This document shows positions 1 through 32,000 of a DNA stretch of 32,000 nt, one piece after another. This DNA is from Thermodesulfobacteriota bacterium (GTDB lineage: Bacteria; Desulfobacterota; WTBG01; JAGOGO01): positions 210,001 through 242,000 of the forward strand of contig CP113000.1 of the NCBI GenBank assembly GCA_026625185.1, read 5' to 3'. Numbering within the stretch: position 1 is the first letter of the stretch; the number at the start of each line of letters is the position of its first letter. Below the pieces are notes generated by a model. That model saw only the letters and a program-made list of their open reading frames with translations. It had not been told where the DNA came from and made no database searches. The position numbers and the translations under genes were made by a program.

Positions 1-657
1 TTGTCGGGATCAGAGGCTTATGCCCACATGAAACGGATTGATTACCGCTCGGGAATCATTTTCGCTCTCGCCACGATCCCCGGTGCCATTTTGGGGGCAA
101 TTCATACCAGTTTTATTTCTCGGCGCTTATTTGATGGCCTCTTCGTTATCTTACTGTTGGCAGCTTCGATATTTTTGCTCTTCCATCCGAATTTGGTTGA
201 ACGACCCCGTAAAGGGTCTGCTCCCCGTCAGAGCGAACGCCACCTGGTTGATGCGGCCGGCATGAGGTATAATTATTCTTTTAACCTTTCGATCGGAGTC
301 GTAGTGAGTGTTTTTGTAGGTTATATTTCAAGTTTTTTAGGGATTGGTGGCGGAATTATCCATGTCCCGGCACTTGTATATCTCTTGCATTTCCCGGTGC
401 ATATTGCTACTGCAACCTCTCATTTTGTATTAGCTATTATGGCGCTTACGGGAACGTTGGTTCATATGGTAATGGGTACCTTTAGCCATGGGGTACATCA
501 GACTATCGCTTTGGCAATAGGAGTAGTTCTGGGAGCTCAAGTGGGAGCCTACCTTTCTAACCGGATTAAAGGAACCTGGATTATTCGAAGCCTTGCACTT
601 GCTTTAGGGTTTATAGGCATCAGGATCCTGATGATTCTTTTTCAAGGAAAAATATAA
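1..657 (+). CDS. TauE/SafE (DUF81) family membrane transporter, 5' end cut by window edge
   Basis: ORF is open from base 1. The product is polytopic and hydrophobic, with the Gly-rich helices typical of DUF81 (FLGIGGGIIHVPALVYLL...HIATATSHF). It is a paralogue of the ORF at 21206-21961. Confidence 0.7.
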   Translation: MSGSEAYAHMKRIDYRSGIIFALATIPGAILGAIHTSFISRRLFDGLFVILLLAASIFLLFHPNLVERPRKGSAPRQSERHLVDAAGMRYNYSFNLSIGVVVSVFVGYISSFLGIGGGIIHVPALVYLLHFPVHIATATSHFVLAIMALTGTLVHMVMGTFSHGVHQTIALAIGVVLGAQVGAYLSNRIKGTWIIRSLALALGFIGIRILMILFQGKI

Positions 658-9020: not shown

Positions 9021-9163
9021 TTTACCCCGTTAGAAATGCCCGGCCTGCCCTGTTAGGTGTTAAATATCTAACGGGTTAAAGAAGCACTGGGTAACCTTAA
9101 AGATTCTTACACTTTTTTACGGGTGGAAAATGTCCGTGGGGAAAACCTTCTAACGGGGTTTAC
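9021..9163 (+). repeat. Nested-palindrome repeat element, copy E1 (longest, 143 nt)
   Basis: Outer inverted repeat CCCCGTTAGAA...TTCTAACGGGG, inner inverted repeat CCCTGTTAG-N11-CTAACGGG, and core AAGAAGCACTGGGTAA. Flanked by TTTAC on both sides. Homologous to 15747-15860, 11684-11791 (-) and 30911-30957. Confidence 0.85.
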
Positions 9164-9203: not shown

Positions 9204-9701
9204 TTAATCAGTTTCCTTAATCACTTGACCGTGGGAAGTAAAAGAAACACCTTGTTGGCCCTTGGTGCCAATCATTATAGCCTCGATCAAAGGCGCGGTG
9301 ACATTACTTTTTGATTCCCAGGTTACAATAAAACTAGCGCCTGAACCTCCACTCTTATCGGATTCCTGAATAATAACCCGCGTTGAGGTCAGAGGATTAA
9401 GCTTTAAATGATTCTGCAGGTAACCTTTAAGAAGTTTACCCTCGGAGCCATAATAGTTTATTGATGTTATGGTAATTGGAGAATCAGGATCGGTATTTCT
9501 TATACTGAGCGTTGCCGTTAGGTCAAGGGGATGTTCCTCCCGGTCACCATGATAAATATGAGAATAAATCGGCACATAAACCATCTGACCCCGGCATCGT
9601 TTGACTTCCGCTAAGGTGTAATGTGTGATGAGGAGCGCATTAATAACAAAGACAAACCCTAAAAGAAATAAACACTTTTTTAAGTAATTTTTTGGTATCA
9701 T
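9204..9701 (-). CDS. DUF3124 domain protein with N-terminal membrane anchor/signal
   Basis: Matches my memory of the DUF3124 signature: VYVPIYSHIYHGD, LSIRNTD, SGGSGASFIV.W, and a hydrophobic N-terminus. RBS GGAG lies before the ATG. Confidence 0.65.
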   Translation of the reverse strand: MIPKNYLKKCLFLLGFVFVINALLITHYTLAEVKRCRGQMVYVPIYSHIYHGDREEHPLDLTATLSIRNTDPDSPITITSINYYGSEGKLLKGYLQNHLKLNPLTSTRVIIQESDKSGGSGASFIVTWESKSNVTAPLIEAIMIGTKGQQGVSFTSHGQVIKETD

Positions 9702-9984: not shown

Positions 9985-12900
9985 TTATTTGCCGGCGAGG
10001 TATTGTTTGAGAAACCGGGCGGTGTACGAGGTATGAGTGTGCTTTAGAATTTCCTGGGGAGCGCCGGTTGCCAAGACGTAGCCGCCTTGGTCCCCTCCTT
10101 CCGGTCCCAGGTCAATGATATGGTCTGCGGCACTAATGATGTCGAGGTTATGTTCGATAATGGCAACCGTATTTCCTTTATCCACCAGCCCGTGAAGTAC
10201 GCTTAAGAGTTTTTCAATATCCGCGAAGTGAAGACCGGTGGTTGGTTCATCGAGGATATACAATGTCTTCCCCTGGGCGGAACGGGAGAATTCATAAGCG
10301 AGTTTAATCCGCTGGGCCTCTCCGCCGGAAAGGGTGGGGCTGGGCTGGCCCAGGGTGAGGTAGTCAAGACCCATGTCGGTAATAATCTTTAAAGGCCTGG
10401 CGATAGCGGGAATGGCGGAAAAGAAATTCGCGGCTTCCTTCATGGTCAGGTTGAGTACTTCGGAAATTGTTTTGCCTTTGTAGTTAATGTGTAATGTCTC
10501 TTCATTAAACCGCGTTCCTCCGCAGACCTCACAGTCCACATACACATCCGGGAGAAAGCTCATCTCGATCCTCTTTTTTCCTTGCCCGGCGCAGGCTTCG
10601 CATCGCCCTCCTTTCACGTTAAAGGAAAACCGTCCGGGATTATATCCCCGCATCCGGGCATCGGGGATAAACGAAAAAAGCCTCCGGATGTCATCATAGA
10701 AACCCACGTAGGTTGCGGGGGTTGAGCGGGGAGTACGGCCAATAGGGGAGTGGTCAACATCGAGCACCCGGTCAAGATGTTCCCACCCGGATAAAGCAGA
10801 GAATGTCGAATTGTTTTGTTTTAGACCCAGAAGGTGATTTTTAACACCCCCTAAGATGACTCCTTTTAAGAGAGTTGACTTTCCTGCGCCGGAGACACCG
10901 GTAACGCAGGTTAAGGTTCCGAGGGGAAGGGCGATCTCGATATTTTTGAGGTTATGTTCCCGAGCGCCTTTAACCATAAGCCATGTATCCGGCGAGCGTT
11001 TTCGCGAGGTAATGATTCGGCGGTTGTGATTTTTCAGGAATTGTCCGGTAATTGAGTGAGGAGTATTTAACAGTGTTTTGAGTGTTCCGGAGGCGATTAC
11101 TTCACCTCCCTGAATTCCTCCTCCGGTGCCCAAGTCAACAATAAAGTCTCCGTGCCGGATGGTCACTTCATCATGTTCCACCACCACCAGACTATTACCC
11201 AAGTTTTTTAGCTCTTTCAAAGTTTGAACCAGCATCCGGTTATCGCGGGGGTGAAGCCCGATGGTCGGCTCATCCAGAATATAACAGGCCCCGCGCAGGT
11301 TGGAGCCTAACTGAGCGGCTAAACGGATCCTTTGAGACTCACCTCCGGAAAGGCTGTCTCCGCGGCGATTGAGGGTGAGATAGGAAAGACCAACTTTGAG
11401 AAGAAAGGCAAGGCGGGTGTTAATCTCCCGGACAATGGCGCCGCCGATTGCCTGTTCGTGAGAAGAAAAGGAGATGGCGCGAAAAAATTTCTCCGCTTGA
11501 GCAACCGAAAGCGACGTCACATCCCAGATCCCCAAACCCTTTACCTTGACGGCCAGCGCATTAGCCTTAAGTCTTTTTCCTTTGCAGGCCGGGCATTCAA
11601 CCTCGTTAACGTCAGACGGCCTATCGGTTGCTTCGAGGAACTGATCATAAAAGAATTCTTGCGAGTAATGATCAGGCTCGGCTATAAACCCCGTTAGAAG
11701 ACTTTCAGACGGAGCATGTACCCGGTGCTTCTTCACCCCGTTGGATTTTGATATCAAACGGGGCAAACGGAGACTTTCTAACGGGATAAAACCTATTCCC
11801 GCGCAGCGGGGGCAGGCGCCGTGTTTGCTGTTAAAAGAAAATAAGCGCGGGTCAAGCGGTTCAAAGCTCTGAAGACAGCGGGGGCAAAACAACGTATCGC
11901 TGTACCGCTTTTGTTTGCCCTCAGCACTAACAGCAAAAAAAGTACCCTCCCCCTGTTGGAGGCTTTCTCGAACGATCTCATCCAAGGTAATTTTTCTCCC
12001 GGAAGAGACATTCTGCCGAGCAATGAGGAGGTCAACTTCATGCTCCTGGTAACGGCTTAAAGCCGGCGGCTTGCTGAGATCAATGATTTTTCCATCAATA
12101 CGGGCTTGGGAATAGCCCTTTTTCAGGGCCTGGGTGAAAATATCTTTATGGAACCCTTTTCTTCCGAAAACTTTGGGGGCAAAGAAAGAAACAAGTTCTT
12201 CCCGAAACGATGCCTGAATATCTTGCGCGATTTGTTCCACGTTCTGAAGCGTGATCGGCTGATCGCATGAAGGGCAGTACTGAGTGCCGAGCTTACTGTA
12301 GAGAAGGCGGAGGAAATGGTAGATTTCCGTCACGGTGGCAACAGTCGACCGTTTTCCTTCCCGGTACATCCGCTGTTCGATCGCCACGGTGGGAGGGATT
12401 CCGGCGACCAAGTCAACATTGGGTTTATCCATGATCTTAAGATACTGCCGGACATAAGGGGTAAGGCTTTCGAGATAGCGGCGCTGGCCTTCCGCGAACA
12501 GGATATCAAAAGCAAGCGTGGATTTGCCTGAGCCGCTCATTCCGGTGATGACCGTCATTTTCCCCCGGGGGATGGTTACCGTGATGTTCTTGAGGTTGTG
12601 TTCCCGCGCGCCCATAACCCGGATTTCCTCGGCAGAAGGTTTACCCTTTTTTTTAACGACCGCACGAGGTTTTTTCTCGTGGATGTTTGAGGCGCCCGGT
12701 TTGAGAATCTCTTTCAGGAACTTTCCGGTCCGGGATTGAGGACACGCCGCAACTTCTTCAGGAGTACCTGCGGCCACGAGAAAGCCTCCGGCCTCACCTC
12801 CTTCGGGTCCCAGGTCAATGATATAATCAGCGTATTTAATGACCTCGAGGTTATGTTCCACGATAACGACGGAGTTTCCCTTTGCCACTAAACTCTGGAG

Positions 12901-15495
12901 AGTCGTGAGGAGCTTGGCGATGTCATCACAGTGAAGGCCAATGGTCGGTTCATCAAAGATAAACAGGATATTTTTGGACTGCGGAGCGCTGATCTGTTTC
13001 GCTAATTTAAGCCGCTGGGCTTCTCCGCCGGAGAGGGTGTTGAGAGGCTGACCTATCTTGATGTTGCCCAAACCGACATCAGTGAGGACTTTTAAATGAG
13101 GGCTTACCTTGGGGAGGACTTTGAAAAACTCCAATGCCTCATCCACTGTGAGGCTCAAAACCTCTGCGAGATTTTTTTTCTGAAAAGTGACTTCCAAGAT
13201 TTCCGGCTTGAACCTTTTTCCCTGACAGTCAGTACAGGTGATGTAGATATCGGCTAAAAACTGCATTTCGGTTTTCTCATACCCGTCTCCTTTACAGGTC
13301 TCACATCTTCCGCCCTCGACATTAAAGGAAAACGATGAGCTCGTGTATCCCCGCTCCTGAGCGAGCGGAGTGCGTGCAAAAAGAGCGCGGATGGCATCAA
13401 ACGCTTTAAGATAGGTCAGGGGGTTTGAGCGCGGGGTTCCGCTGACGGTTTTTTGGTTAACCAGCATGACCTCGTGAATCAGCTCAGTTCCTTTGATCGC
13501 GGCAAACGCGCCCGGTTTTTCCTCAAACACTCCTTTTTCTCGCTTTATGCCACGGTAAAGAATCTCTTCAATCAGGGTGCTTTTTCCTGAACCCGAAACA
13601 CCGGTTACGCACACCACCATTCCCAGAGGAATTTCGAGGTCGAGGTTTTTGAGATTGTGCTCGCCTGCTCCGAAGATCCGGATCGTGTTGGTTTTTCGAG
13701 GGCTTCTCCTTTTTTGGGGGAGAGAAACTTTCAGCGCTCCGGAGAGGTATCGCCCGGTAAGCGAGTTCTTAGCTCGTGTTATTCCCTGCGCTTTTCCGAA
13801 ATAGACTAATTCTCCTCCCTTCTCCCCGGCGCCCGGACCGAGGTCGAGGATGTAGTCGCTGTTCTTGATGATTTCCGGATCATGCTCCACCACCAGCACG
13901 GTGTTATTATTTTTTTTAATCTGATGGAGGATATTCATTAAGCGGAGGTTGTCGCGGGGGTGAAGCCCGATGCTCGGTTCATCGAGGATGTAAAGGGTGT
14001 TGGCAAGCGAGGAGCCTAAGATAGTGGTGAGATTCAGCCGTTCCACTTCACCGCCCGAAAGGGTGCGCGACTGGCGGTCTAAGGAAAGGTACCCAAGCCC
14101 GACATCAATCAGGTAAAGGAGACGGTTTTTGATTTCCTGAAGAATGGTCTCGCTGACCTTGTCATCTTTGGCCTGAAGGCGGGTAAAAAAATCATGAGCC
14201 TGAGCAACACTCATCCGGTAAAGCTCGCCGATATTTTTTTCTTCCACCTTCCAGAAGAGCGCTTCTTTTTTGAATCGTGTGCCATGGCAGGCCGGGCACT
14301 CACGGTATCTCCGGTAGCGGGAAAGGAAGACCCGGACGTGCATCTTGTATTTTTTAGTCTCCAGCCATTCAAAAAAGCCCCGGATTCCGTAATAGTCGGA
14401 AGTTCCATTGATAATGTCCTGCTGATCTTTTTCCTTTAAATCTTTAAACGGGATAGTAGTCGGGATTTTCCGGGCGCGGCAAAACTCCATCAGGTCGTCA
14501 AACTCGATTCGTCCGGGCTCGGGCTTCCAGGACTTGATGGCTCCTTCTCGTAATGATTTGGTCTTATCCGGGATAACCAGTTCGATGTCAAAGTCAATGA
14601 TTCTTCCAAACCCGCGGCAGTTTTCGCACGCCCCTAACGGGCTGTTAAAAGAAAAAAGATTGGGGACCGGATACTGGTAATTGAGGTCACAATAGGGGCA
14701 GTGAAACTCGGCGCTGAATTTTAAAACATCCTGTCCCGGAAAAACAAGCGAGCAATGCCCTCCGCCAAACTTAAGCGCTCCTTCGAGCGAATCAATGATC
14801 CGCTTTTTTGCCCCTGTTTTCATGGTCAGCCCGTCCATCACCATGAGAACTTCTTTTTTGGCTTTCTTGAGGACCTGGCTGAGCGGCAGAATTTCGTTGT
14901 TATAATAAGCGCGTGAAAACCCCATGCCTGAAAGATAGGTTTCTACGTCATTCCGGTTAAGTCCATTAAATTTAATGGGGAACGCGATAATAAATTCTGT
15001 TCCTTCCCCCCGGGTCAGGAGACTCTCCCAGATGGTGAACGGTGTATCCCGTTCTACTTCTCTTCCGCAGGCAGGACAATAAAGAAGCGCTATTTTAGCG
15101 AAAAGCAGTTTACAGAAGTCAGTGATCTCGGTCATGGTGCCCACAGTGGAGCGGGACGTTTTTACCAGGTTTTTGCCGTCAATGGCGATGGCCGGCGGAA
15201 TTCCTTCGATTTTATCCACCCGGGGTTTATCCATCCGGTCCATAAACTGGCGGGCATAAGGGGAAAAGGTCTCCACATACCTTCTTTGCCCTTCAGCGTA
15301 CAGGGTATCGAAAGCGAGGGATGATTTTCCCGAGCCGCTTACCCCGGTAATGGCGATGATCTGAAAGAGGGGGATTTCAAGGTTCAGATTTTTTAAATTA
15401 TTCTGCTTGGCGCCGATAATCCGGATTGAGTCGTAAGCGTTCATTTTTTTGAGGTACTGCTGGGTGTGATTTTTAATCTCTTTCTTTCTTGACAA
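9985..15495 (-). CDS. Tandem-fused double UvrA-like ABC ATPase (two complete UvrA units, four nucleotide-binding modules)
   Basis: Four Walker A motifs (GVSGSGKSS, GVSGSGKST, GMSGSGKST, GVSGAGKST) and four LSGGE signatures. CxxC zinc modules appear in UvrA order in both halves. The two units are joined by a basic linker (KKPRAVVKKKGKPSAEE). The ORF opens with TTG at 15495. ATG at 15444 (MNAYDSIRIIGAKQNNLKN) resembles a canonical UvrA N-terminus and may be the real start. Confidence 0.85.
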   Translation of the reverse strand: MSRKKEIKNHTQQYLKKMNAYDSIRIIGAKQNNLKNLNLEIPLFQIIAITGVSGSGKSSLAFDTLYAEGQRRYVETFSPYARQFMDRMDKPRVDKIEGIPPAIAIDGKNLVKTSRSTVGTMTEITDFCKLLFAKIALLYCPACGREVERDTPFTIWESLLTRGEGTEFIIAFPIKFNGLNRNDVETYLSGMGFSRAYYNNEILPLSQVLKKAKKEVLMVMDGLTMKTGAKKRIIDSLEGALKFGGGHCSLVFPGQDVLKFSAEFHCPYCDLNYQYPVPNLFSFNSPLGACENCRGFGRIIDFDIELVIPDKTKSLREGAIKSWKPEPGRIEFDDLMEFCRARKIPTTIPFKDLKEKDQQDIINGTSDYYGIRGFFEWLETKKYKMHVRVFLSRYRRYRECPACHGTRFKKEALFWKVEEKNIGELYRMSVAQAHDFFTRLQAKDDKVSETILQEIKNRLLYLIDVGLGYLSLDRQSRTLSGGEVERLNLTTILGSSLANTLYILDEPSIGLHPRDNLRLMNILHQIKKNNNTVLVVEHDPEIIKNSDYILDLGPGAGEKGGELVYFGKAQGITRAKNSLTGRYLSGALKVSLPQKRRSPRKTNTIRIFGAGEHNLKNLDLEIPLGMVVCVTGVSGSGKSTLIEEILYRGIKREKGVFEEKPGAFAAIKGTELIHEVMLVNQKTVSGTPRSNPLTYLKAFDAIRALFARTPLAQERGYTSSSFSFNVEGGRCETCKGDGYEKTEMQFLADIYITCTDCQGKRFKPEILEVTFQKKNLAEVLSLTVDEALEFFKVLPKVSPHLKVLTDVGLGNIKIGQPLNTLSGGEAQRLKLAKQISAPQSKNILFIFDEPTIGLHCDDIAKLLTTLQSLVAKGNSVVIVEHNLEVIKYADYIIDLGPEGGEAGGFLVAAGTPEEVAACPQSRTGKFLKEILKPGASNIHEKKPRAVVKKKGKPSAEEIRVMGAREHNLKNITVTIPRGKMTVITGMSGSGKSTLAFDILFAEGQRRYLESLTPYVRQYLKIMDKPNVDLVAGIPPTVAIEQRMYREGKRSTVATVTEIYHFLRLLYSKLGTQYCPSCDQPITLQNVEQIAQDIQASFREELVSFFAPKVFGRKGFHKDIFTQALKKGYSQARIDGKIIDLSKPPALSRYQEHEVDLLIARQNVSSGRKITLDEIVRESLQQGEGTFFAVSAEGKQKRYSDTLFCPRCLQSFEPLDPRLFSFNSKHGACPRCAGIGFIPLESLRLPRLISKSNGVKKHRVHAPSESLLTGFIAEPDHYSQEFFYDQFLEATDRPSDVNEVECPACKGKRLKANALAVKVKGLGIWDVTSLSVAQAEKFFRAISFSSHEQAIGGAIVREINTRLAFLLKVGLSYLTLNRRGDSLSGGESQRIRLAAQLGSNLRGACYILDEPTIGLHPRDNRMLVQTLKELKNLGNSLVVVEHDEVTIRHGDFIVDLGTGGGIQGGEVIASGTLKTLLNTPHSITGQFLKNHNRRIITSRKRSPDTWLMVKGAREHNLKNIEIALPLGTLTCVTGVSGAGKSTLLKGVILGGVKNHLLGLKQNNSTFSALSGWEHLDRVLDVDHSPIGRTPRSTPATYVGFYDDIRRLFSFIPDARMRGYNPGRFSFNVKGGRCEACAGQGKKRIEMSFLPDVYVDCEVCGGTRFNEETLHINYKGKTISEVLNLTMKEAANFFSAIPAIARPLKIITDMGLDYLTLGQPSPTLSGGEAQRIKLAYEFSRSAQGKTLYILDEPTTGLHFADIEKLLSVLHGLVDKGNTVAIIEHNLDIISAADHIIDLGPEGGDQGGYVLATGAPQEILKHTHTSYTARFLKQYLAGK
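11684..11791 (-). repeat. Nested-palindrome repeat element, copy E4, embedded in frame in the double-UvrA CDS
   Basis: The - strand reads TTTTATCCCGTTAGAAAG...GCCCCGTTTGATATCAAAATCCAACGGGGTGAAGAAGCACCGGGTA...TCTTCTAACGGGGTTTAT. This is collinear with copy E2, including an identical 12-mer GTGAAGAAGCAC. Length is 108 nt, encoding FIPLESLRLPRLISKSNGVKKHRVHAPSESLLTGFI. Confidence 0.85.
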
Positions 15496-15746: not shown

Positions 15747-15860
15747 TTTTACCCTGTTAGAAAGACCAGCTTGCCCTGTTAGATATAAAATATCTAACAA
15801 AGTGAAGAAGCACGGGGTAATGGTAAATACACCGGTTGAAATTCTTCTAACGGAGTTTAC
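15747..15860 (+). repeat. Nested-palindrome repeat element, copy E2 (114 nt)
   Basis: TTTTACCCTGTTAGAAAG...GCCCTGTTAGATATAAAATATCTAACAAAGTGAAGAAGCACGGGGTAA...TTCTTCTAACGGAGTTTAC. About 80% identical to E1 over the left 70 nt. Confidence 0.85.
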
Positions 15861-15949: not shown

Positions 15950-16372
15950 ATGAAACGAGATAACAAGATAGATGAATTATTCGAAGAGTTTGGCTCTTCA
16001 ATGTCGGTAAATTTGATTGTCCAAGGCCCCCGAGAAGTTCTTGACCTCAGAGGTCAGCTTCTTAAAGGGTGTTTGCAATGCCAAAAGCGGATCAGTGAAT
16101 TTATGCTTTCCCAGGATATTGCCTGCGCTCTTACCGCCGGTCACTATGAGATAAAATCCGATGCCGCAAAATTTCTTCAAAAAATCTGCAACAATGCTAT
16201 TTCCCTTGCTAAGGCAAGCGAGAAAACCGACGGTCTTGTCCGGGCTTCCGGGGATACGGCCATGGTGCTGAAAACCTTAAAAGAGGTTGACCCGAAAAAA
16301 TTCCTCGAAGTTTTGTGTATCCTGTTAAAATACGAAAAGGAGAAAAAGGGTGACAAAGCTCATACCGTATAA
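15950..16372 (+). CDS. Hypothetical protein (140 aa), no recognisable domain
   Basis: RBS GGAG lies before the ATG. The 3' end overlaps the next ORF by 23 nt. Probably helical. Confidence 0.55.
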   Translation: MKRDNKIDELFEEFGSSMSVNLIVQGPREVLDLRGQLLKGCLQCQKRISEFMLSQDIACALTAGHYEIKSDAAKFLQKICNNAISLAKASEKTDGLVRASGDTAMVLKTLKEVDPKKFLEVLCILLKYEKEKKGDKAHTV

Positions 16373-16961
16373 GAAAGCAAAAAGCCAGGCACTTAAGCTT
16401 CTTAAAGCAAAAGATGTAAAAGAAGCGGAGAATGTTTTAGCCCTTTGCACGGATGAAACCCGTTTGCGCATTTATGGTGAAATGACACCTCATGAGCTGG
16501 GATTGCTGGCTTCCCGGGGAGACATGAGCTGGATAATTTGCGAACTGCCCCGGGAAATGCTGATTAACGCGCTCGCTCATGATCCGGAACTGATTGATGA
16601 AAAAGGCCAGCTCTATCCGGTGCAGGCAGTGGCGGTTGCCTATTCTTTAACTGACCGGGAGGATGCTCCTAACCTTTATCAGGAAGAGGACCTTATCCGC
16701 AATATTGTAAGCATGGCTTTTTTGGTTGAAGTGCCGGAGGAATTTGATTTTGAAGAGGCAGATGAGGTGGAAAACTGGCTATTGAACCATTGGCTTAATC
16801 GATTTGAGCCGGACATTGATGACTTGCTGAAATACGATGAGGAAACGTTATTTGGTATTACGGCAGATATCCGCGAGAAAGCGAAGGAAGAGATCCGAAT
16901 AATTCAAAAAGCGATGAAAGCACGAGCGGAAAAAGTCGAACGCGAAATGTTTGATATTTAA
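16350..16961 (+). CDS. Hypothetical acidic protein (203 aa), no recognisable domain
   Basis: GTG start 7 nt after AAGGAG, inside the 3' end of the preceding ORF, which suggests translational coupling. Asp/Glu-rich (EEFDFEEADEVENW). Followed by a terminator. Confidence 0.55.
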   Translation: MTKLIPYKKAKSQALKLLKAKDVKEAENVLALCTDETRLRIYGEMTPHELGLLASRGDMSWIICELPREMLINALAHDPELIDEKGQLYPVQAVAVAYSLTDREDAPNLYQEEDLIRNIVSMAFLVEVPEEFDFEEADEVENWLLNHWLNRFEPDIDDLLKYDEETLFGITADIREKAKEEIRIIQKAMKARAEKVEREMFDI

Positions 16962-16980
16962 ATTTGGCGGCTTCAATTTC

Positions 16981-17035
16981 ACCCTCACCCTGACCCACTC
17001 CCTCAAGGGAGAGGGTATTTCTATTTTTCCTTTTT
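16981..17035 (+). terminator. Rho-independent terminator candidate
   Basis: ACCCTCACCCT (16981-16991) pairs with AGGGAGAGGGT (17006-17016), 11 bp with one mismatch. Followed by ATTTCTATTTTTCCTTTTT. Starts 20 nt after the stop at 16961. Confidence 0.5.
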
Positions 17036-17104
17036 CTCACAGGATAGAGGGCGTATCTCGGCGCTATGATTAATAACTTTTTTAAGGAATAAGACAACAC
17101 TTCT

Positions 17105-18922
17105 ATGACGTTTCTGGTGAAGTGGAAACCTGCCCGAAAAGAATGGGATCCTGATCTCCAAAAACCATTTTTGGTTCAGGTTCTTAAAAAAGCGGTGTTT
17201 AGTAATCTGCTTGACCTGGAGTTTTTGTTTTATTTTAAGAACTCGCTCTCGGTTATGTGTGAGATCTGGCTCAAAAGGGTGGGGATTGATCCAATGATCA
17301 ATGCCGGCAAAAACTTTCATGCTTTACAGGATGAGTTTTATAAGGTGCTCGCGCATATCAACCGGGGATTTGAGCTTGAAGTAAATGCCGACTGGAAGGA
17401 CGGCGTGGGAAGATTAATTGAGCTTTGGAGGAATATCGAACGGGAAAATGAAGCGCGATGGAATGACTATAAGGAGGAGCGGCGCAAGGGCGATCCGGCC
17501 AGCCGTTTTGAGCTGAAAGAAGAGCCTAAGCAGGATGTGGCCGATGCTTTCTGGGTGAGCATGTTCAGAAAAGGAAGAAAGTGGAGAAAAGAGGCGCTTG
17601 ACCTTGCGGAGGCAATCGACGGGCAGCAAGCCCGGTTTTTTTTCTCCCCGTTTGAGAGTGATGAACACAAGACTTTTACTGATACCAAGACTCATGTGTT
17701 GAGGGACACTCAGGAAGAATGGATTTATACCAGGCTTTCCTCCAGACTGGGGTTAAGCCCTGGTTATGATTTTCTGGTAGAGACTTTCGCGGCAAGTTTG
17801 AAGACGGTCAAAAAAGCTCAAAGGATTATCCGCGAAGGCAATGCCAAACTTTGGCTGATCAATAATTTTTTTCAGATCAACCGGAGGGAGTGGGTCTATT
17901 TACTGGGAACATTAACCGGCGGTCATGTTCCTTTGGAGCGCTTGTTCGGCAATCTGATCACCACCATCATTCTCAAACACGACCGAAAATCATTTGAACT
18001 CAAAGAAGAGGATGCGGGGGATCTGTTTCGAATTTTTTGGATTCATGGGCTCACGCTTCCCTATGACCAGGCAGAATACGCCGCGCGCTTCCTGCACCAA
18101 GCCATTGTCAATGCCAAAGAATACAAAATTTACGCGGACACGTTCAGAATTTTATCCGCTCTGCACAAAGCCGGAGACAACGGGAAAAGCTATAAAACTT
18201 TTTTTGAGGCGGGCAAGGTTTTGTCCGCTTTGGATAAAGAAATAAATCATATCGTCCAGCACCAGATCTACGAAGCGGACGTTGACCTCTCCGGATTGGA
18301 CGTACCTATTGACACGGAAAAGAAATACCGGTTGTTGATCGCGAAGCTGGAGTTAATGGTGTCGCTGGAGATGGAAATTCATAAGGTGGTGGAAGAAATT
18401 TTCTGGAAAGACATTGAGACGTTTTCCGATCTTATCCGAGCGTATAAGATCCAGAAGAGAAGAAAACATTCCGACAAAGAAAAAGAAACATTAAAAAAAA
18501 TAGCCCAAAAATATTATCTCCGACCAGATGAGAAAAATTTTCTTTCCTATGCTCCCGATCGCTGCTACGTGGGCAAAGAGCTGGGGTACTTTAATGTGAG
18601 AGTGTCGCGGGAAGGGCACGGGGAAACTCCGGGCAAACTTTTATTTGCAAAAAAGACCCAGAAGGTAAAAAGAGACTACCTGATTCCGCCCCTCCATATC
18701 CGCCGGGAATTAATCTCTTTGTGCGGCCGCTACGGAAAGATCATTGCGGACATCACCGACAAGAAAAAAAACCAGGTTTTTCCTGATGCCAAACTCATCT
18801 GGACTCCAACCAAAATTCAGGTCACCGACAAACGATACCAGCGGAAGATCAAACCCCAAACCCTCTACGAGGTTAAGATTAAACAGGCGCTCCCCCGCAA
18901 GCTGAGGGAAAAGTGGGAATAG
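17105..18922 (+). CDS. Hypothetical protein (605 aa), no recognisable domain; Lys/Arg-rich C-terminal region
   Basis: Long uninterrupted ORF with G+C like the neighbouring host genes. Weak RBS (AAGGA 16 nt upstream). The basic tail (KRYQRKIKPQ...PRKLREKWE) hints at nucleic-acid binding; this is inference only. Confidence 0.6.
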   Translation: MTFLVKWKPARKEWDPDLQKPFLVQVLKKAVFSNLLDLEFLFYFKNSLSVMCEIWLKRVGIDPMINAGKNFHALQDEFYKVLAHINRGFELEVNADWKDGVGRLIELWRNIERENEARWNDYKEERRKGDPASRFELKEEPKQDVADAFWVSMFRKGRKWRKEALDLAEAIDGQQARFFFSPFESDEHKTFTDTKTHVLRDTQEEWIYTRLSSRLGLSPGYDFLVETFAASLKTVKKAQRIIREGNAKLWLINNFFQINRREWVYLLGTLTGGHVPLERLFGNLITTIILKHDRKSFELKEEDAGDLFRIFWIHGLTLPYDQAEYAARFLHQAIVNAKEYKIYADTFRILSALHKAGDNGKSYKTFFEAGKVLSALDKEINHIVQHQIYEADVDLSGLDVPIDTEKKYRLLIAKLELMVSLEMEIHKVVEEIFWKDIETFSDLIRAYKIQKRRKHSDKEKETLKKIAQKYYLRPDEKNFLSYAPDRCYVGKELGYFNVRVSREGHGETPGKLLFAKKTQKVKRDYLIPPLHIRRELISLCGRYGKIIADITDKKKNQVFPDAKLIWTPTKIQVTDKRYQRKIKPQTLYEVKIKQALPRKLREKWE

Positions 18923-19927: not shown

Positions 19928-19995
19928 TGCACCCCAGATGAAAATTGAATAGTTTGTCTTTCACCAAAACAGCGAATATTATTCATGGAGGAAAT

Positions 19996-20511
19996 ATGAA
20001 TATAAAATACAAAATGTTGTTGATGGTTTTTTTGTTTCCTTTGGTTTTGTGCGCTGCTGGAGAGTCACAGGAGAATGCTCCCCAAGTCACGTCTGAGGTA
20101 ACGTCACAGGAAATTGTTCCCCAAGTCATGCCTGAGGTAAAGCCACAGCAGAATGTTCCTCAAGTCACGCCTGAGGCGCTTGCAATTGCCGGTGCGGTGC
20201 AGTGGCTTAAAGTCACCGATGCTGAGAATTATGACAAAGCCTGGATGTATGCATCCGAGTATCTTAAAAACGCGGTTCCCAAAGATGTTTTTAAAGAGAG
20301 GCTTCAAGGGGTGAGAAGCCCATTAGGCAGCATGAAAAAACGAGTTATGGATGCAGCCCAATATGCCACCAGTCTTCCGGGATCTCCGGATGGAGAGTAT
20401 GTGGTTATAAAATTTAAAACCGAATTTGAAAAAAAAACCAACGCGGTTGAGACGCTAATTTCTAAGAAAGAAGACAGTCAGTGGAAGATAGCCGGATATT
20501 ACATCAAGTAG
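19996..20511 (+). CDS. Secreted DUF4019 family protein, paralogue 1 (with internal 13-aa x3 repeat)
   Basis: RBS GGAGG 4 nt before the ATG at 19996 (the ORF track starts at 19945). Signal peptide. DUF4019-like core: WLK..D..NYDKAW.YAS.YLK...LGSMKKR...LPGSPDGEYVVIKF.T.F...WKIAGYYI. Confidence 0.65.
   Translation: MNIKYKMLLMVFLFPLVLCAAGESQENAPQVTSEVTSQEIVPQVMPEVKPQQNVPQVTPEALAIAGAVQWLKVTDAENYDKAWMYASEYLKNAVPKDVFKERLQGVRSPLGSMKKRVMDAAQYATSLPGSPDGEYVVIKFKTEFEKKTNAVETLISKKEDSQWKIAGYYIK
20068..20184 (+). repeat. In-frame tandem repeat, 3 x 39 nt (QENAPQVTSEVTS / QEIVPQVMPEVKP / QQNVPQVTPEALA)
   Basis: Three consecutive 39-nt units read directly. Only one unit equivalent is present in the paralogue at 20643-21080. 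Confidence 0.85.
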
Positions 20512-20560
20512 CTATCATTCAATTTTCATCAATTAAAACCTTTTGACTCATCAAGTAATA

Positions 20561-20613
20561 GGGGAACCAGACTGGAACCCCACGTGCCCCCTCTTTGGAA
20601 AAGAGGGGGGGGG
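20561..20613 (+). repeat. GC-rich hairpin repeat R1 (GGGGAACCAGACTGGAACCCC plus CCCCCTCTT-TGGAA-AAGAGGGGG)
   Basis: 9-bp stem at 20587-20595/20601-20609. Lies 50-100 nt after the stop at 20511. Related to 21128-21190 and 22007-22040. Confidence 0.7.
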
Positions 20614-20642
20614 ATTGAGAAATATTACTTCCCGGATGGAAT

Positions 20643-21080
20643 ATGAAGATAGGGTATAGGGTTTTGTTAATCTTTTTTGTGTTTCCTTTTTTATTGTTTG
20701 CCGCGGAAGGGTCAGAGCAGAATATAAAAGGAAAGCCGGAGGTTCTTGCGATTGCCAGCGCTCAGCAGTGGCTTGAAATCATTGATGCCGGCGAGTATGC
20801 CGAGGGCTGGGAGAGTGCATCCGAATATTTGAAGAACACGGTTCCCGAGGATGCTTTTAAACAGAAGCTTAAAGGGGTGAGAAAGCCGTTAGGTAAAATG
20901 AAGAAACGAACTTTTGTTTCGGCGCAATATACCGCCCGTTTTCCCGCCGGGTCGGATAAAGAATATGTGGTAATCCAATTTAGGACTGAGTTTGAAAACA
21001 AAGCGTACGCAATGGAGAACCTAACCGCTCAGAAAGAAGAAGACGGGCAGTGGAGGATAGCGGGATATTATATAAATTAG
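20643..21080 (+). CDS. Secreted DUF4019 family protein, paralogue 2
   Basis: Signal peptide. Collinear with paralogue 1 (AQQWLEIIDAGEYAEGWESASEYLKN...WRIAGYYIN). Confidence 0.65.
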   Translation: MKIGYRVLLIFFVFPFLLFAAEGSEQNIKGKPEVLAIASAQQWLEIIDAGEYAEGWESASEYLKNTVPEDAFKQKLKGVRKPLGKMKKRTFVSAQYTARFPAGSDKEYVVIQFRTEFENKAYAMENLTAQKEEDGQWRIAGYYIN

Positions 21081-30854: not shown

Positions 30855-30910
30855 GTTTTTAGTACATTATTATTTATTGCTTTTAATAAATTTTTATAGT
30901 TTTTACTTCC

Positions 30911-30957
30911 TTACTCCGTTAGAAATGCCCCGTATGAGAGCCTTCTAACAAGGTTTA
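30911..30957 (+). repeat. Nested-palindrome repeat element, copy E3 (47-nt mini version: termini only)
   Basis: TTACTCCGTTAGAAATGCCCCG...CCTTCTAACAAGGTTTA matches the two ends of E1 with the interior missing. Lies 57 nt upstream of the htrA start. Confidence 0.7.
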
Positions 30958-31056
30958 ATATAAAAAAATTTTCCTTTTATGACAAGAAAATTCCCACTCT
31001 CTTGGAAGGGATCATCTTTTTATGTGAACGATGAGGTTAACTAAAAAGAAGTAAAA

Positions 31057-31490: not shown

Positions 31491-31657
31491 GAATATAAAG
31501 TTTTTCTTTTTGTTTAGTAAGGGGATTAACAGAACTAATAACCATATAACGTTATAAGGAGGGACGCGGCATTCATCAAGTCTTATTGGGGAATACAAAG
31601 TTTTTTTATTTGTTAAGGGGATTAACAAAACTAATAGCCATATAACTTTATAAGGAG
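31491..31657 (+). repeat. Two copies (71 and 67 nt) of a direct repeat in the leader of the last ORF, each ending in TTATAAGGAG
   Basis: Copy A is 31491-31561 and copy B is 31591-31657. They share AAAGTTTTT..TT.GTT...AAGGGGATTAACA.AACTAATA.CCATATAAC.TTATAAGGAG. A third TTATAAGGAG lies at 31483-31492. Copy A contains the perfect palindrome TATAACGTTATA. Confidence 0.75.
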
Positions 31658-31664
31658 AAATAAG

Positions 31665-32000
31665 ATGAAAATTAAATTTATTCTTTTAGCTTTAGTTTTA
31701 GGTTTGTTTTTTGTTGTTTCAACAACCAATGCTGGGTCTGTTTATCATAAATACCTAATGAAAGGTTCGGTTCTTGAAGTTTCGGATAGCATGGCCTATA
31801 TATGCGTAGGCACCAAAGATGGGGCAAAGGCAGGACAGGAGCTTAATGTGGTAAGATACGTAAAAACGGAGGCAACTCCTGGCCCGAAAGAACAGCCCAT
31901 GTTCAAAAGGGAAGAAGTTGGTAAATTAAAAATAGAGAAAATTGTCGACGAACATATGGCCAACGCTAAGATAATATCCGGAGACGTTAAGGTGCATGAC
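31665..32000 (+). CDS. Secreted hypothetical protein, 3' end cut by window edge (not in the supplied ORF track)
   Basis: AAGGAG 7 nt before the ATG at 31665. My own translation gives 112 codons open to the window end: MKIKFILLALVLGLFFVVSTTNAGSVYHKYLMKGSVLEVSD.... Clear signal peptide. Confidence 0.6.
   Translation, partial: MKIKFILLALVLGLFFVVSTTNAGSVYHKYLMKGSVLEVSDSMAYICVGTKDGAKAGQELNVVRYVKTEATPGPKEQPMFKREEVGKLKIEKIVDEHMANAKIISGDVKVHD

What the first reader, a model, noticed from the sequence alone, without database searches (positions are those of the whole stretch)
11684..11791. Repeat element inserted exactly in frame inside the double-UvrA gene, contributing 36 codons
The - strand of 11684-11791 is a full-length copy of the intergenic repeat, collinear with copy E2 from TTTTAT...GTTAGAAAG through GTGAAGAAGCAC to TCTTCTAACGGGGTTTAT. 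It is 108 nt, a multiple of 3, contains no stop in the gene's frame, and translates to FIPLESLRLPRLISKSNGVKKHRVHAPSESLLTGFI.

It sits between the CPRCAGIG and CPACKGKR zinc-ligand pairs of the second UvrA unit. In canonical UvrA, as I recall the structural papers, these pairs flank the 'insertion domain'. The first unit has about 100 residues there. The second has 65, of which 36 come from the repeat.

This resembles the Rickettsia palindromic elements that persist in frame inside protein-coding genes. It would be a new instance in a DNA-repair-type ATPase.
Basis: partly seen in the sequence, partly recalled or inferred. Interest (0 to 1): 0.8.

Follow-up and report, generated by a model that had tools for sequence, protein, structure and literature searches.

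The report
Mobile repeat translated inside repair gene
A 98-base mobile mini-repeat (a MITE) sits in frame inside the doubled UvrA DNA-repair gene of the benzene-degrading bacterium ORM2a, adding 34 amino acids to a dispensable loop; close relatives lack it, so this is a real but already familiar kind of event.

Summary
The minus strand of 11689-11786 is a full-length copy of a repeat family. A model built only from copies on other contigs finds it at E=1e-25. The net gain is 102 nt (34 codons), not 108/36.

Orthologous uvrA alleles from metagenomes show filled and empty sites (GGT TTT ATT GCC). One empty allele differs from a filled one by a single SNP over about 640 nt around the site.

The element is a MITE: 11-bp terminal inverted repeats (CCCCGTTAGAA) and a 4-nt target repeat at TNNA. 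The same termini occur in MAGs of many phyla.

It landed where the insertion domain of UvrA unit 2 had already shrunk to about 30 residues. AlphaFold gives pLDDT 24-33 there and above 80 elsewhere. The gene stays under purifying selection (dN/dS 0.1-0.2), including downstream of the insert.

Only one site and orientation in that linker is readable. Only a sub-lineage with two specific changes lacks stop codons. The same peptide sits in frame in an MBL-fold hydrolase, again absent from close homologues.

This is a new member of a known kind.

The parts
9985..15495 (-). Doubled (two-unit) UvrA gene. It is 1836 aa counted from TTG; the likely true start is ATG at 15444 (MNAYDS..., 1819 aa), identical to NCBI WAC09176.1 of Desulfobacterota candidate ORM2a.
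   Evidence: ORF and translation. (ABC_tran, 2x UvrA_inter, UvrA_DNA-bind). (Walker A, signature and Walker B motifs present). (identity to P0121/P0124 and to ORM2a accessions). (unit 2 model matches UvrA structures, TM 0.76-0.84).
11689..11786 (-). The element proper: 98 nt, with termini TCCCGTTAGAA...TTCTAACGGGG. The first base is a window-specific C>T change, giving Thr>Ile.
   Evidence: boundaries from filled/empty comparison and family alignment. (independent profile, E=1.3e-25). (three-way fold, z=-3.6).
11787..11790 (-). Gene-proximal (5' in gene sense) copy of the 4-nt target repeat TTTA.
   Evidence: the empty site has a single TTTA; the filled site has TTTA on both sides.
11685..11688 (-). 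Gene-distal (3' in gene sense) copy of the target repeat TTTA.
11686..11787 (-). The 34 added codons, I1237-F1270: IPLESLRLPRLISKSNGVKKHRVHAPSESLLTGF.
   Evidence: pLDDT 24-33.
11736..11763 (-). Inner hairpin 1 of the element (CCCCGTTTGAT...ATCCAACGGGG). It carries the A>T change and the 1-nt deletion that make the element readable in the uvrA frame.
   Evidence: fold. (consensus gives TGT TAG stop and wrong length; both changes are required).
11596..11685 (-). Vestigial remnant (30 aa, I1271-E1300) of the unit-2 insertion domain. It evolves fast.
   Evidence: full, vestigial or absent in different doubled-UvrA clades. (remnant dN 0.17-0.18 against gene-wide 0.09 in comparisons with L004). (low pLDDT).
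11803..11814 (-). First pair of zinc ligands of Zn module 2 in unit 2 (C1228, C1231; CPRC).
   Evidence: aligns to GACPEC of 9gxk_A.
11584..11595 (-). Second pair of zinc ligands of Zn module 2 in unit 2 (C1301, C1304; CPAC).
   Evidence: aligns to CPVC of 9gxk_A.
9021..9162 (+). Intergenic copy E1: long form, 134-nt element (9025-9158) flanked by TTTA/TTTA.
   Evidence: E=7e-20. Orthologous copies lie just after uvrA in L003, L126, L127 and L128.
15748..15859 (+). Intergenic copy E2: 104-nt element (15752-15855) flanked by TTTA/TTTA, upstream of uvrA.
   Evidence: E=8e-21; the same site holds a short form in L003/L005, a long form in L004, and is empty in L002/L006.
30910..30957 (+). Intergenic copy E3: 40-nt internally deleted form (30914-30953), little more than the two termini.
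   Evidence: partial hit, E=6e-4.

Best explanation
The segment is a copy of a non-autonomous transposon (a MITE) that inserted into a TTTA inside uvrA and has been kept because it does no harm.

The element has 11-bp terminal inverted repeats (CCCCGTTAGAA), a 4-nt target repeat at TNNA, and a three-way hairpin interior.

The insertion is tolerated for three reasons:
(a) Element plus target repeat is 102 nt, a multiple of 3.
(b) Two of the three reading frames through the termini are open, and this sub-lineage carries two changes that remove the only stop and fix the length.
(c) It landed in the linker that replaces the insertion domain of the second UvrA unit. That region was already reduced to about 30 fast-evolving residues in this clade and is entirely absent in others.

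The 34 added residues are translated as part of a disordered surface loop. The rest of the protein continues under purifying selection.

The site is polymorphic among close relatives. At least two, and probably three, insertions hit this same position independently, because it is the only readable TTTA site and orientation in the linker. One lineage (the ORM2 draft and BDM alleles) probably lost the element by precise deletion between the two TTTA copies, which the terminal stem brings together.

Shown: the insertion, its boundaries, the polymorphism, the selection on the gene and the family properties. Inferred: translation through the insert, the loop's disorder, neutrality, and the order of gains and losses.
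For: Repeat identity: an independent profile gives E=1.3e-25, and three more copies lie in the window.

Filled and empty sites at DNA level are shown. L126 (empty) and L003/L128 (filled) are identical for 99 nt to the left and differ at one SNP within 540 nt to the right.

MITE properties:
- The 4-nt flanks are identical in 73 of 119 copies, against about 13 expected; 82% are TNNA.
- T(-3), A(0) and R(12) are conserved although the search pattern did not impose them.
- A second filled/empty site lies upstream of uvrA.
- The fold has the TIR stem plus two hairpins, z -3.6 to -5.8.

Tolerance:
- Unit 2 lacks PF17755. Canonical UvrA has about 117 residues at this position. The doubled-UvrA family has this domain full, vestigial or absent.
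- AF2 gives pLDDT 24-33 for residues 286-341 against a mean of 82. The model matches UvrA structures at TM 0.76-0.84.

Functional gene: dN/dS is 0.18 (window-L003) and 0.115 (window-L004), alike in both units. Downstream of the insert it is 0.12-0.13 between filled alleles, and there are no internal stops.

Readability filter:
- Inserting the 99-nt family consensus gives stops; both the A>T change and the 1-nt deletion are needed.
- Only one of the two TTTA sites in the linker is readable, and there is none on the other strand.

Recurrence:
- The same peptide is in frame in an MBL-fold hydrolase and absent from homologues at 83-84% identity.
- Three more in-frame cases occur in other subfamilies.

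Independent gains:
- The window-L004 inserts differ at 11 of 90 nt while host dS is 0.82. By my arithmetic from the values, about 37 of 90 would be expected for an orthologous neutral sequence.
- Genic copies are no closer to each other than to copies at unrelated loci.
- L005 carries a different variant.
Against: There is no direct evidence of transcription or translation: UvrA is absent from the held proteomic tables.

No autonomous transposase with these termini was found in about 1 Mb of MITE-bearing DNA.

The target repeat is strongly polar relative to the element (TTTA 31 of 39, TAAA 0-1 of 39). A symmetric cut-and-paste mechanism does not predict this.

Low pLDDT may partly reflect the few sequences that cover the insert in the alignment.

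Within the insert, dN/dS between window and L003 is about 0.4 on 11 differences. That is too few to tell neutrality from weak constraint.

The peptide is basic (6 K+R, 2 H, 2 D+E), so some contact with DNA cannot be excluded.

The gene is a recombination mosaic, so the order of gains and losses rests on local haplotypes only.
Confidence: 0.85

Rival explanations
1. Exaptation. The basic, flexible 34-residue loop has taken over part of the role of the lost insertion domain, which contacts DNA in canonical UvrA, and is kept by selection.
For: The insert sits exactly where the DNA-contacting insertion domain would be. The peptide is net basic in all three uvrA variants. Insert dN/dS of about 0.4 is below 1. 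The insertion persists in several lineages.
Against: Very close relatives do without it on an almost identical haplotype. Other clades have no linker at all. The basic stretch (VKKH) is encoded by the family-wide core GTGAAGAAGCAC and appears equally in an unrelated hydrolase. L004 has a 3-codon deletion inside the insert. The insert diverges at about the silent rate between window and L003. pLDDT is 24-33.
Confidence: 0.08
2. History rival A. One ancient insertion occurred before the L004 split, and all empty alleles (clade L001/L002/L006 and L126/L127) arose by repeated precise excision.
For: This is the fewest events on the whole-gene tree. It explains the same site and orientation in all filled alleles. 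The terminal stem juxtaposes the TTTA copies. The upstream intergenic site shows the same distribution.
Against: The window-L004 inserts differ by 12% while host dS is 0.82, and the insert evolves at about the silent rate between window and L003. Genic copies are not each other's nearest relatives. L005 holds a different variant. The gene tree is unreliable because of recombination.
Confidence: 0.1
3. History rival B. There has been no excision at all. Every filled lineage (window, L003/L128, L004, L005) gained its copy independently at the only viable site, and empty alleles were never hit.
For: There is only one readable site and orientation in the linker. Only the readable sub-lineage can survive in a gene. 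The family phylogeny is star-like. L126 (empty) and L003 (filled) share one haplotype, which fits a very recent gain as well as a recent loss.
Against: The window and L003 inserts share derived states (AAGTC, CGTCTG) seen in no other sampled copy, and six differences from the consensus in all. Their 11% divergence matches the local silent divergence. Both points fit one insertion in their common ancestor, and therefore a loss in L126/L127.
Confidence: 0.3
4. Mechanism rival. The family is not moved by a symmetric DDE transposase. It is moved by a strand-specific system (IS200/IS605-like 'peel and paste', or similar) that inserts next to a fixed tetra- or pentanucleotide and excises precisely.
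For: The flanking repeat is polar (TTTA 31 of 39 against TAAA 0-1 of 39), with C after the right copy in 72% of cases. The same polarity is seen across phyla. Subterminal hairpins are present. An empty site with no footprint sits on a filled-type haplotype. No DDE parent was found.
Against: Perfect 11-12 bp terminal inverted repeats are typical of DDE elements and not of IS200/IS605. The duplicated tetranucleotide varies among copies (TTTA, TGAA, TTGA, TCAA...) instead of being fixed. I saw no consistent match between hairpin-loop sequence and flank sequence in the copies I inspected by eye.
Confidence: 0.2
5. Artefact or decay. The insertion is an assembly error, or the gene is a pseudogene.
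For: The source is a metagenome-assembled genome. One related allele (L005) has a premature TAG near codon 52.
Against: The identical protein occurs in a closed, roughly 1000-1700x coverage genome and in an independent JGI contig. Filled alleles were assembled independently from other samples. There are no internal stops, and dN/dS is 0.1-0.2 on both sides of the insert.
Confidence: 0.02

Closest known systems
Rickettsia palindromic elements (RPE; Ogata et al. 2000, as summarised in PMC10969869 and PMC5896051)
   Same: Both are short palindromic repeats of roughly 100-150 bp found both between genes and in frame inside unrelated genes. Both add a family-typical peptide at positions compatible with the fold. 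Both are present or absent among orthologues (literature).
   Different: The host is a free-living anaerobic Desulfobacterota, not an obligate intracellular alphaproteobacterium. This family has clear terminal inverted repeats and a 4-nt target repeat. In-frame copies are a minority: 3 of 120 in the cross-phylum sample and about 3 loci among the roughly 30 sampled for the window subfamily (my rough count). By contrast, nearly half of the RPEs are in frame. Sequence relatedness to RPEs was not tested.
QMITE1/QMITE2 of Coxiella burnetii (PMC5896051)
   Same: These are MITEs with TIRs and short variable direct repeats. Some copies are in frame within ORFs or extend them, conferring basic peptides.
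   Different: The sizes differ (150-400 bp), as do the direct-repeat lengths (2-3 or 7-11 nt). QMITEs are confined to one species, whereas the termini here are shared across many phyla.
Correia/NEMIS elements of Neisseria (from my own knowledge; cited's reference list)
   Same: Both are MITEs of about 100-150 bp with TIRs that fold into a long hairpin when transcribed. Both are abundant and polymorphic between strains.
   Different: Correia elements duplicate TA, have 26-bp TIRs and are essentially intergenic. They are known for promoter, IHF and RNase III effects rather than for being translated.
IS200/IS605-derived palindrome-associated elements and REPINs (from my own knowledge)
   Same: Both show strand-polar insertion next to a short fixed sequence, subterminal hairpins and footprint-free excision. 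These features would account.
   Different: Those elements lack long terminal inverted repeats and do not duplicate a variable tetranucleotide. No Y1 transposase or RAYT was found nearby.
Canonical class I UvrA (e.g. 2r6f, 3pih, 3zqj, 9gxk)
   Same: Unit 2 has the full ABC-ATPase pair, a UvrB-binding domain and all three zinc modules. Identity is 45-47% and TM is 0.76-0.84.
   Different: Two complete units are fused in one chain. The insertion domain of unit 2 is reduced to about 30 residues, and the MITE now sits inside that remnant.

Membership tests
[quoted passage not shown] | Short (under about 500 bp), with no coding capacity for a transposase | tested here: met
   Elements are 40-134 nt. 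No ORF of its own is possible at that size.
[quoted passage not shown] | Terminal inverted repeats | tested here: met
   CCCCGTTAGAA / TTCTAACGGGG is perfect in most copies. The ends are conserved as TnnACCCCGTTAGAAr.
[quoted passage not shown] | Target-site duplication of fixed length | tested here: met
   The 4-nt flanks are identical in 73 of 119 copies against about 13 expected; other registers give 0-6. Empty sites hold one copy.
[quoted passage not shown] | Multiple dispersed copies, with filled and empty sites among relatives | tested here: met
   There are 4 copies in 32 kb and 29 more on 25 metagenome contigs. Three polymorphic sites were found.
[quoted passage not shown] | A related autonomous insertion sequence with the same termini | tested here: not met
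   None was found in about 1 Mb of loci. The IS1-like element in L128 does not carry these termini. Whole genomes could not be searched, so this is weak negative evidence.
[quoted passage not shown] | Random orientation relative to a non-palindromic target, as expected for a symmetric transpososome | tested here: not met
   TTTA occurs in 31 of 39 copies and TAAA in 0-1 of 39 in a common orientation. The same polarity is seen across phyla.
Rickettsia palindromic elements (RPE) | In-frame presence inside unrelated protein-coding genes, contributing a family-typical peptide | tested here: met
   UvrA and the MBL-fold hydrolase carry nearly the same peptide.
Rickettsia palindromic elements (RPE) | Inserted peptide lies at a position compatible with the fold (surface or loop) | tested here: met
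   The insert lies in a low-confidence loop between the Zn ligands, while the flanking domains are confidently modelled. This is a prediction, not a solved structure.
Rickettsia palindromic elements (RPE) | Sequence homology to RPE-1..10 and occurrence in Rickettsia | not tested
   No RPE sequences were available. The host is a Desulfobacterota. Rfam returned no hit in the window. This element is not filed as an RPE.
IS200/IS605-type non-autonomous elements | No terminal inverted repeats; subterminal hairpins at each end | tested here: not met
   Perfect 11-12 bp TIRs are present, although subterminal hairpins also exist.
IS200/IS605-type non-autonomous elements | Strand-specific insertion next to a fixed tetra- or pentanucleotide; precise excision | tested here: inconclusive
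   Polarity is present, and there is a footprint-free empty site on a filled-type haplotype. However, the tetranucleotide varies among copies.
UvrA (class I), host protein unit 2 | Two ABC ATPase modules with Walker A, signature and Walker B motifs | tested here: met
   GSGKS/GAGKS, LSGGE x2 and DEP x2 are present in unit 2.
UvrA (class I), host protein unit 2 | UvrB-binding domain and three zinc modules | tested here: met
   PF17760 matches at residues 1084-1187. The Cys pairs are at 1074/1204, 1228/1301 and 1632/1655.
UvrA (class I), host protein unit 2 | Insertion (DNA-binding) domain between the Zn2 ligand pairs | tested here: not met
   There is no PF17755 match in unit 2. Empty alleles have only about 30 residues here, against about 117 in 9gxk_A.

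The most novel reading that the evidence does not exclude
The termini TnnACCCCGTTAGAAr mark a very widespread, undescribed superfamily of non-autonomous elements. It is shared by Patescibacteria, Planctomycetota, Omnitrophota, Nitrospirota, Thermodesulfobacteriota and others, and it is moved by an unidentified, strand-polar and precisely excising mechanism. Within it, a 'readable' sub-lineage has arisen that can enter and leave protein-coding genes without killing them. That would make it a reversible source of loop insertions in proteins of free-living bacteria.
Probability: 0.2. Interest if true: 0.7.

Novelty: new member of a known kind. Interest (0 to 1): 0.45.

Why it matters
In-frame palindromic repeats are best known from Rickettsia and a few other host-restricted bacteria, where weak selection is usually invoked to explain them. 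Here the same phenomenon occurs in a free-living, strongly selected anaerobe, in a gene that remains under purifying selection. The case is unusually well resolved: exact filled and empty alleles coexist in the same enrichment-culture lineage.

It also shows concretely why such insertions survive. They need a multiple-of-three length, open frames through the termini, two enabling mutations and a landing site in a degenerate loop.

For annotators, it explains a 34-residue oddity in WAC09176.1 and a similar one in an MBL-fold hydrolase.

The cross-phylum conservation of the termini and their polar target are loose ends that could lead to a new transposition system. That part is not established here.

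Tried and rejected
1. Rfam, at gathering thresholds, over the whole window gave no family. The element is not a described structured RNA.
2. A full-text search for the terminal 10- and 11-mers returned only coincidental primer matches.
3. The search for an autonomous parent failed. The sequences between long-range TIR pairs are housekeeping genes. A relaxed search (one mismatch, matching 4-nt flanks, 0.6-3.5 kb apart) over 0.98 Mb found nothing transposase-like. The IS1-like genes in L128 lack these termini.
4. The viral-contig scan with the TIR pair gave 0 hits, so there is no sign of a phage vehicle.
5. A protein-database census with the MITE peptide failed. This reflects a limit of the index and is not evidence of absence.
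6. The proteomic supplements of the ORM2 study have no entry for WAC09176.1 or UvrA. One file was truncated, and only about 350 ORM2a proteins were detected, so this is uninformative.
7. Using the whole-gene tree to order gains and losses was abandoned after the sliding-window comparison showed a recombination mosaic.
8. The idea that hairpin-loop sequence guides target choice, as in IS608, was considered from inspection. It was dropped because loop and flank sequences do not co-vary.
9. attC (integron) identity was considered because of the GTTAGAA/TTCTAAC cores. It was rejected because the order of the cores is the reverse of R''...R' and because a target repeat is present.
10. In one search my 'win' element was extracted one base off. 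Only the L003 rows of that call are used.
Full report
**1. What is in the sequence**

The window carries a 5.5-kb ORF on the minus strand (9985-15495). It encodes two complete UvrA units in one chain. Pfam finds ABC_tran, UvrA_inter twice, and UvrA_DNA-bind once, in unit 1 only.

The protein is identical to P0121 and P0124. P0121 is NCBI WAC09176.1, on a 3,300,546-bp contig. WAC accessions and that size belong to the closed genome of Desulfobacterota candidate ORM2a, CP113000.1, the benzene fermenter of the OR/DGG-B methanogenic consortium.

Between the zinc-ligand pairs CPRC (C1228/C1231) and CPAC (C1301/C1304) of unit 2, the protein reads GIGFIPLESLRLPRLISKSNGVKKHRVHAPSESLLTGFIAEPD....

**2. 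The repeat is real**

The repeat finder links 11685-11789 (minus strand) to intergenic copies at about 9022-9163 (E1), 15749-15860 (E2) and 30911-30958 (E3). They align end to end.

To avoid circularity I built a profile from 16 copies on other contigs, none from the window and none from uvrA. It finds 11689-11785 (-) over its full length with E=1.3e-25, which is the best hit in the window. E2, E1 and the short E3 follow.

The quoted peptide corresponds to 11790..11683.

**3. It is an insertion, and its exact size is 102 nt**

The closest homologues in a 5.8-billion-protein collection split into two groups. Some carry the segment (P0001, P0005, and a variant in P0006). Others lack exactly it (P0002, P0003, P0004, and the 69%-identical P0007).

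I fetched the encoding contigs and aligned the DNA.
- Empty: GGA ATG GGT TTT ATT GCC GAG.
- Filled: GGT TTTA[CCCCGTTAGAA...TTCTAACGGGG]TTTA TTGCC.

The net gain is 102 nt, or 34 codons. That is a 98-nt element plus one copy of a 4-nt target repeat. The first element base is C in L003, L004, L005 and L128 and T in the window, so T is a window-specific change (Thr>Ile).

**4. What kind of element it is**

About one would be expected by chance (my estimate for 22 specified bases). The hits are MAGs of Patescibacteria, Planctomycetota, Omnitrophota, Nitrospirota, Thermodesulfobacteriota, 'delta proteobacteria', Cloacimonadota and others.

*Interiors and flanks.* Interiors are mostly unrelated between phyla. 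The four bases outside the termini are identical on the two sides in 73 of 119 copies. About 13 would be expected from flank composition, and only 5 are inverted matches. In addition, 82% of flanks are TNNA.

*Extent of conservation.* The flanking T (88%) and A (85%) and a purine at position 12 (96%) are conserved although the pattern did not impose them. Nothing is conserved further in.

*Fold.* The element folds as a three-way junction. The termini form a 12-bp outer stem that brings the two TTTA copies together, and there are two inner hairpins. z-scores are -3.6 to -5.8.

*Other evidence.* A second filled/empty site lies in the intergenic region upstream of uvrA. It is full-length in the window, long in L004, internally deleted in L003 and L005, and empty in L002 and L006.

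These are the defining properties of a MITE. No autonomous parent was found. There is no Rfam family, no paper holding the terminal sequence and no copy on viral contigs.

**5. Why the protein tolerates it**

In a solved canonical UvrA (9gxk_A), about 117 residues, the insertion domain, separate the two ligand pairs. Unit 1 of this protein keeps that domain (PF17755 at residues 303-367).

In unit 2 the domain is variable across the doubled-UvrA family. It is full length in many members, absent in some (P0010-P0012, P0014), and reduced to about 30 residues in the ORM2 clade and P0007. That remnant evolves fast: dN is 0.17-0.18 against 0.09 gene-wide in comparisons with L004.

An AlphaFold model of unit 2 used 41 sequences and reached mean pLDDT 81.6 and pTM 0.73. 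It is confident everywhere except residues 286-341 (pLDDT 24-33), which are the insert plus the remnant. The model matches UvrA crystal and cryo-EM structures at TM 0.76-0.84.

The gene is under purifying selection.
- dN/dS is 0.18 (window-L003) and 0.115 (window-L004), alike in both units.
- Downstream of the insert, dN/dS is 0.12-0.13 between alleles that both carry it.
- No allele has an internal stop.

So the gene is evidently read through the element. Direct expression data are lacking.

**6. Why this site and this variant**

The termini are closed in one frame (CCC CGT TAG; TTC TAA) and open in the other two. For a length of 3n+2, the frames pair up at the two ends. uvrA uses ...PLE...LTG....

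The 99-nt consensus of the window's subfamily is not readable at this site, because it gives TGT TAG and has the wrong length. Both an A>T change (GTTAGAT>GTTTGAT) and a 1-nt deletion in the inner hairpin are required. All uvrA copies have both changes.

Among the other sampled copies, only two have both changes, and both are inside open frames.
- L134 lies in an MBL-fold hydrolase. It adds TPLEKTRLPSLISKSNGVKKHGVNAPCESLLTGF after GYLTDNEF. Homologues at 83-84% identity lack exactly this segment, and one at 89% has a variant interior.
- L144 lies near the N-terminus of a MutY-like ORF. This case was not verified.

In other subfamilies, 3 of 120 copies are in frame, using the ...PVR...SNG... 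frame. Their hosts are an IorA-like oxidoreductase, a Memo-like protein and a radical-SAM protein.

In the uvrA linker there are two TTTA sites on the sense strand and none on the other strand. Only the observed site gives an open frame (L003 rows).

**7. History of the site**

*The gene tree and its limits.* A whole-gene tree nests empty alleles among filled ones. However, the gene is a recombination mosaic, with stretches of 0.000 divergence between different pairs. Only local evidence is therefore used below.

*(a) Filled and empty alleles on one haplotype.* L126 (the ORM2 draft, empty) and L003/L128 (filled) are identical for 99 nt to the left of the site. To the right they differ at one SNP within 540 nt. 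Both carry haplogroup-specific states that the other empty clade lacks. L126 and L127 do have the family at neighbouring intergenic sites.

*(b) Star-like insert distances.* The window, L003 and L004 inserts differ pairwise by 11-12%. Host silent divergence is 0.17 for window-L003 but 0.82 for window-L004. At the rate seen between window and L003, about 37 of 90 differences would be expected against L004 (my arithmetic); 11 are seen.

*(c) Family-wide star phylogeny.* Subfamily copies at unrelated loci are 86% identical on average and lie 2-10 changes from a common consensus. The genic copies are no closer to each other than to copies elsewhere.

*(d) Shared derived states.* The window and L003 inserts nevertheless share six differences from the consensus. 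Two of them (AAGTC, CGTCTG) are seen in no other copy.

*(e) The L005 variant.* L005 holds a different variant whose extra base is compensated by a 1-nt deletion about 10 nt downstream. That allele also has a premature TAG near codon 52.

*My reading.* The L004, L005 and ORM2-group insertions are independent hits on the only viable site (about 0.8). Within the ORM2 group the insertion is ancestral and was lost precisely in L126/L127 (about 0.55), rather than being gained twice. Slipped-strand deletion between the TTTA copies across the terminal stem is the established kind of mechanism for such losses (my own knowledge of Tn5/Tn10 precise excision). It was not tested here.

**8. An unexplained feature**

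When all copies are put in one orientation, the flanking repeat is TTTA in 31 of 39 copies on each side. TAAA appears in 0-1 of 39. The base after the right copy is C in 72%.

The cross-phylum set shows the same polarity: TTTA 20 and TTGA 10, against TAAA 3 and TCAA 0.

A two-fold symmetric transpososome acting on identical termini should not distinguish the strands. Either the ends are functionally unequal or the mechanism is strand-specific.

**9. Comparison with known systems, and verdict**

Reviews state that in-frame MITE-ORF fusions are 'not unusual'. RPEs are the extreme case, and QMITE, ERIC and BOX provide further examples.

This element behaves like an RPE but is a TIR plus target-repeat MITE in a free-living Desulfobacterota. 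I file it as a new member of a known kind.

Interest is moderate. The case is clean and instructive, with exact empty alleles, one viable site, two enabling mutations and recurrence in a second gene. The cross-phylum, polar termini are a real loose end.

Noticed in passing
L134 516-618 (contig LQYC01004429.1); proteins P0141-P0146: The same MITE subfamily is in frame in an MBL-fold hydrolase (phosphoribosyl 1,2-cyclic phosphodiesterase-like). It adds TPLEKTRLPSLISKSNGVKKHGVNAPCESLLTGF. Homologues at 83-84% identity lack exactly this segment, and one at 89% (P0142) has a variant interior.
   Followed up: yes
L028 6059-6147; L046 1732-1838; L099 906-997; L144 2858-2959: Further copies lie inside long open frames: an IorA-like TPP/ferredoxin oxidoreductase, a Memo-like protein, a radical-SAM protein (between the CxxxCxxC motif and the rest of the domain), and the N-terminal region of a MutY-like ORF. 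In the first three, length+4 is divisible by 3. They were not compared with insert-free homologues.
   Followed up: partly
Loci L008-L125 (genome-contig scan): The exact termini CCCCGTTAGAA/TTCTAACGGGG, with conserved flanking T..A and a purine at position 12, occur in MAGs of many phyla, while the interiors are unrelated. No parent transposase was identified. Mis-binning cannot be excluded for individual MAGs.
   Followed up: partly
Window copies at 9021-9162, 11685-11790 and 15748-15859; loci L129-L153: The target repeat is polar relative to the element: TTTA in 31 of 39 copies, TAAA in 0-1 of 39, and C after the right copy in 72%. This is not expected for a symmetric cut-and-paste transposon.
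   Followed up: partly
window 9204-9701 (-): A DUF3124 gene (E=1e-50) lies between the uvrA stop and copy E1. In L003, L126, L127 and L128 the E1-like copy follows uvrA by about 50 nt with no such gene. So about 0.8 kb has been gained here or lost there, next to the element.
   Followed up: no
uvrA alleles of window, L003, L126, L127 and L128: The gene is a mosaic of recombination tracts. For example, L127 is identical to L003 over alignment codon columns 0-100 and 400-650, and identical to the window over columns 750-850. Whole-gene trees of these strains are therefore misleading.
   Followed up: yes
L005, about 1700-1760 (uvrA codon ~52): This allele has TAG where the others have Tyr (AEGQRW*VETF). 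The gene was called from a downstream start and lacks the first Walker A motif. It may be a pseudogene or a sequencing error. Its MITE copy is one base too long and is compensated by a 1-nt deletion about 10 nt downstream.
   Followed up: partly
L128 6199-7304: An IS1-like transposase pair (weak DDE_Tnp_IS1 and HTH hits) is inserted just after the E1-like copy downstream of uvrA. It is absent from L003, L126 and L127. No MITE termini were detected at its ends.
   Followed up: partly
Doubled-UvrA homologues P0008-P0030: Across the doubled-UvrA family, the insertion domain of unit 2 is full length (about 100 aa), vestigial (about 30 aa) or completely absent, while unit 1 keeps it. This suggests the two units have divided their roles.
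   Followed up: partly
window 19945-21080: There are two tandem DUF4019 paralogues (188 and 145 aa; about 71% identical over 300 nt). The first has three 39-nt tandem repeats at 20064-20180 in its N-terminal region.
   Followed up: no
window 31507-31561 and 31603-31657: A 55-nt leader ending in TATAAGGAG is duplicated (89% identical, 96 nt apart) just upstream of a signal-peptide ORF that starts at 31666.
   Followed up: no
window 15950-18922 (+): Three conserved genes with no Pfam match (140, 203 and 605 aa) are divergently linked to uvrA in every related locus (L002-L007, L126).
   Followed up: no
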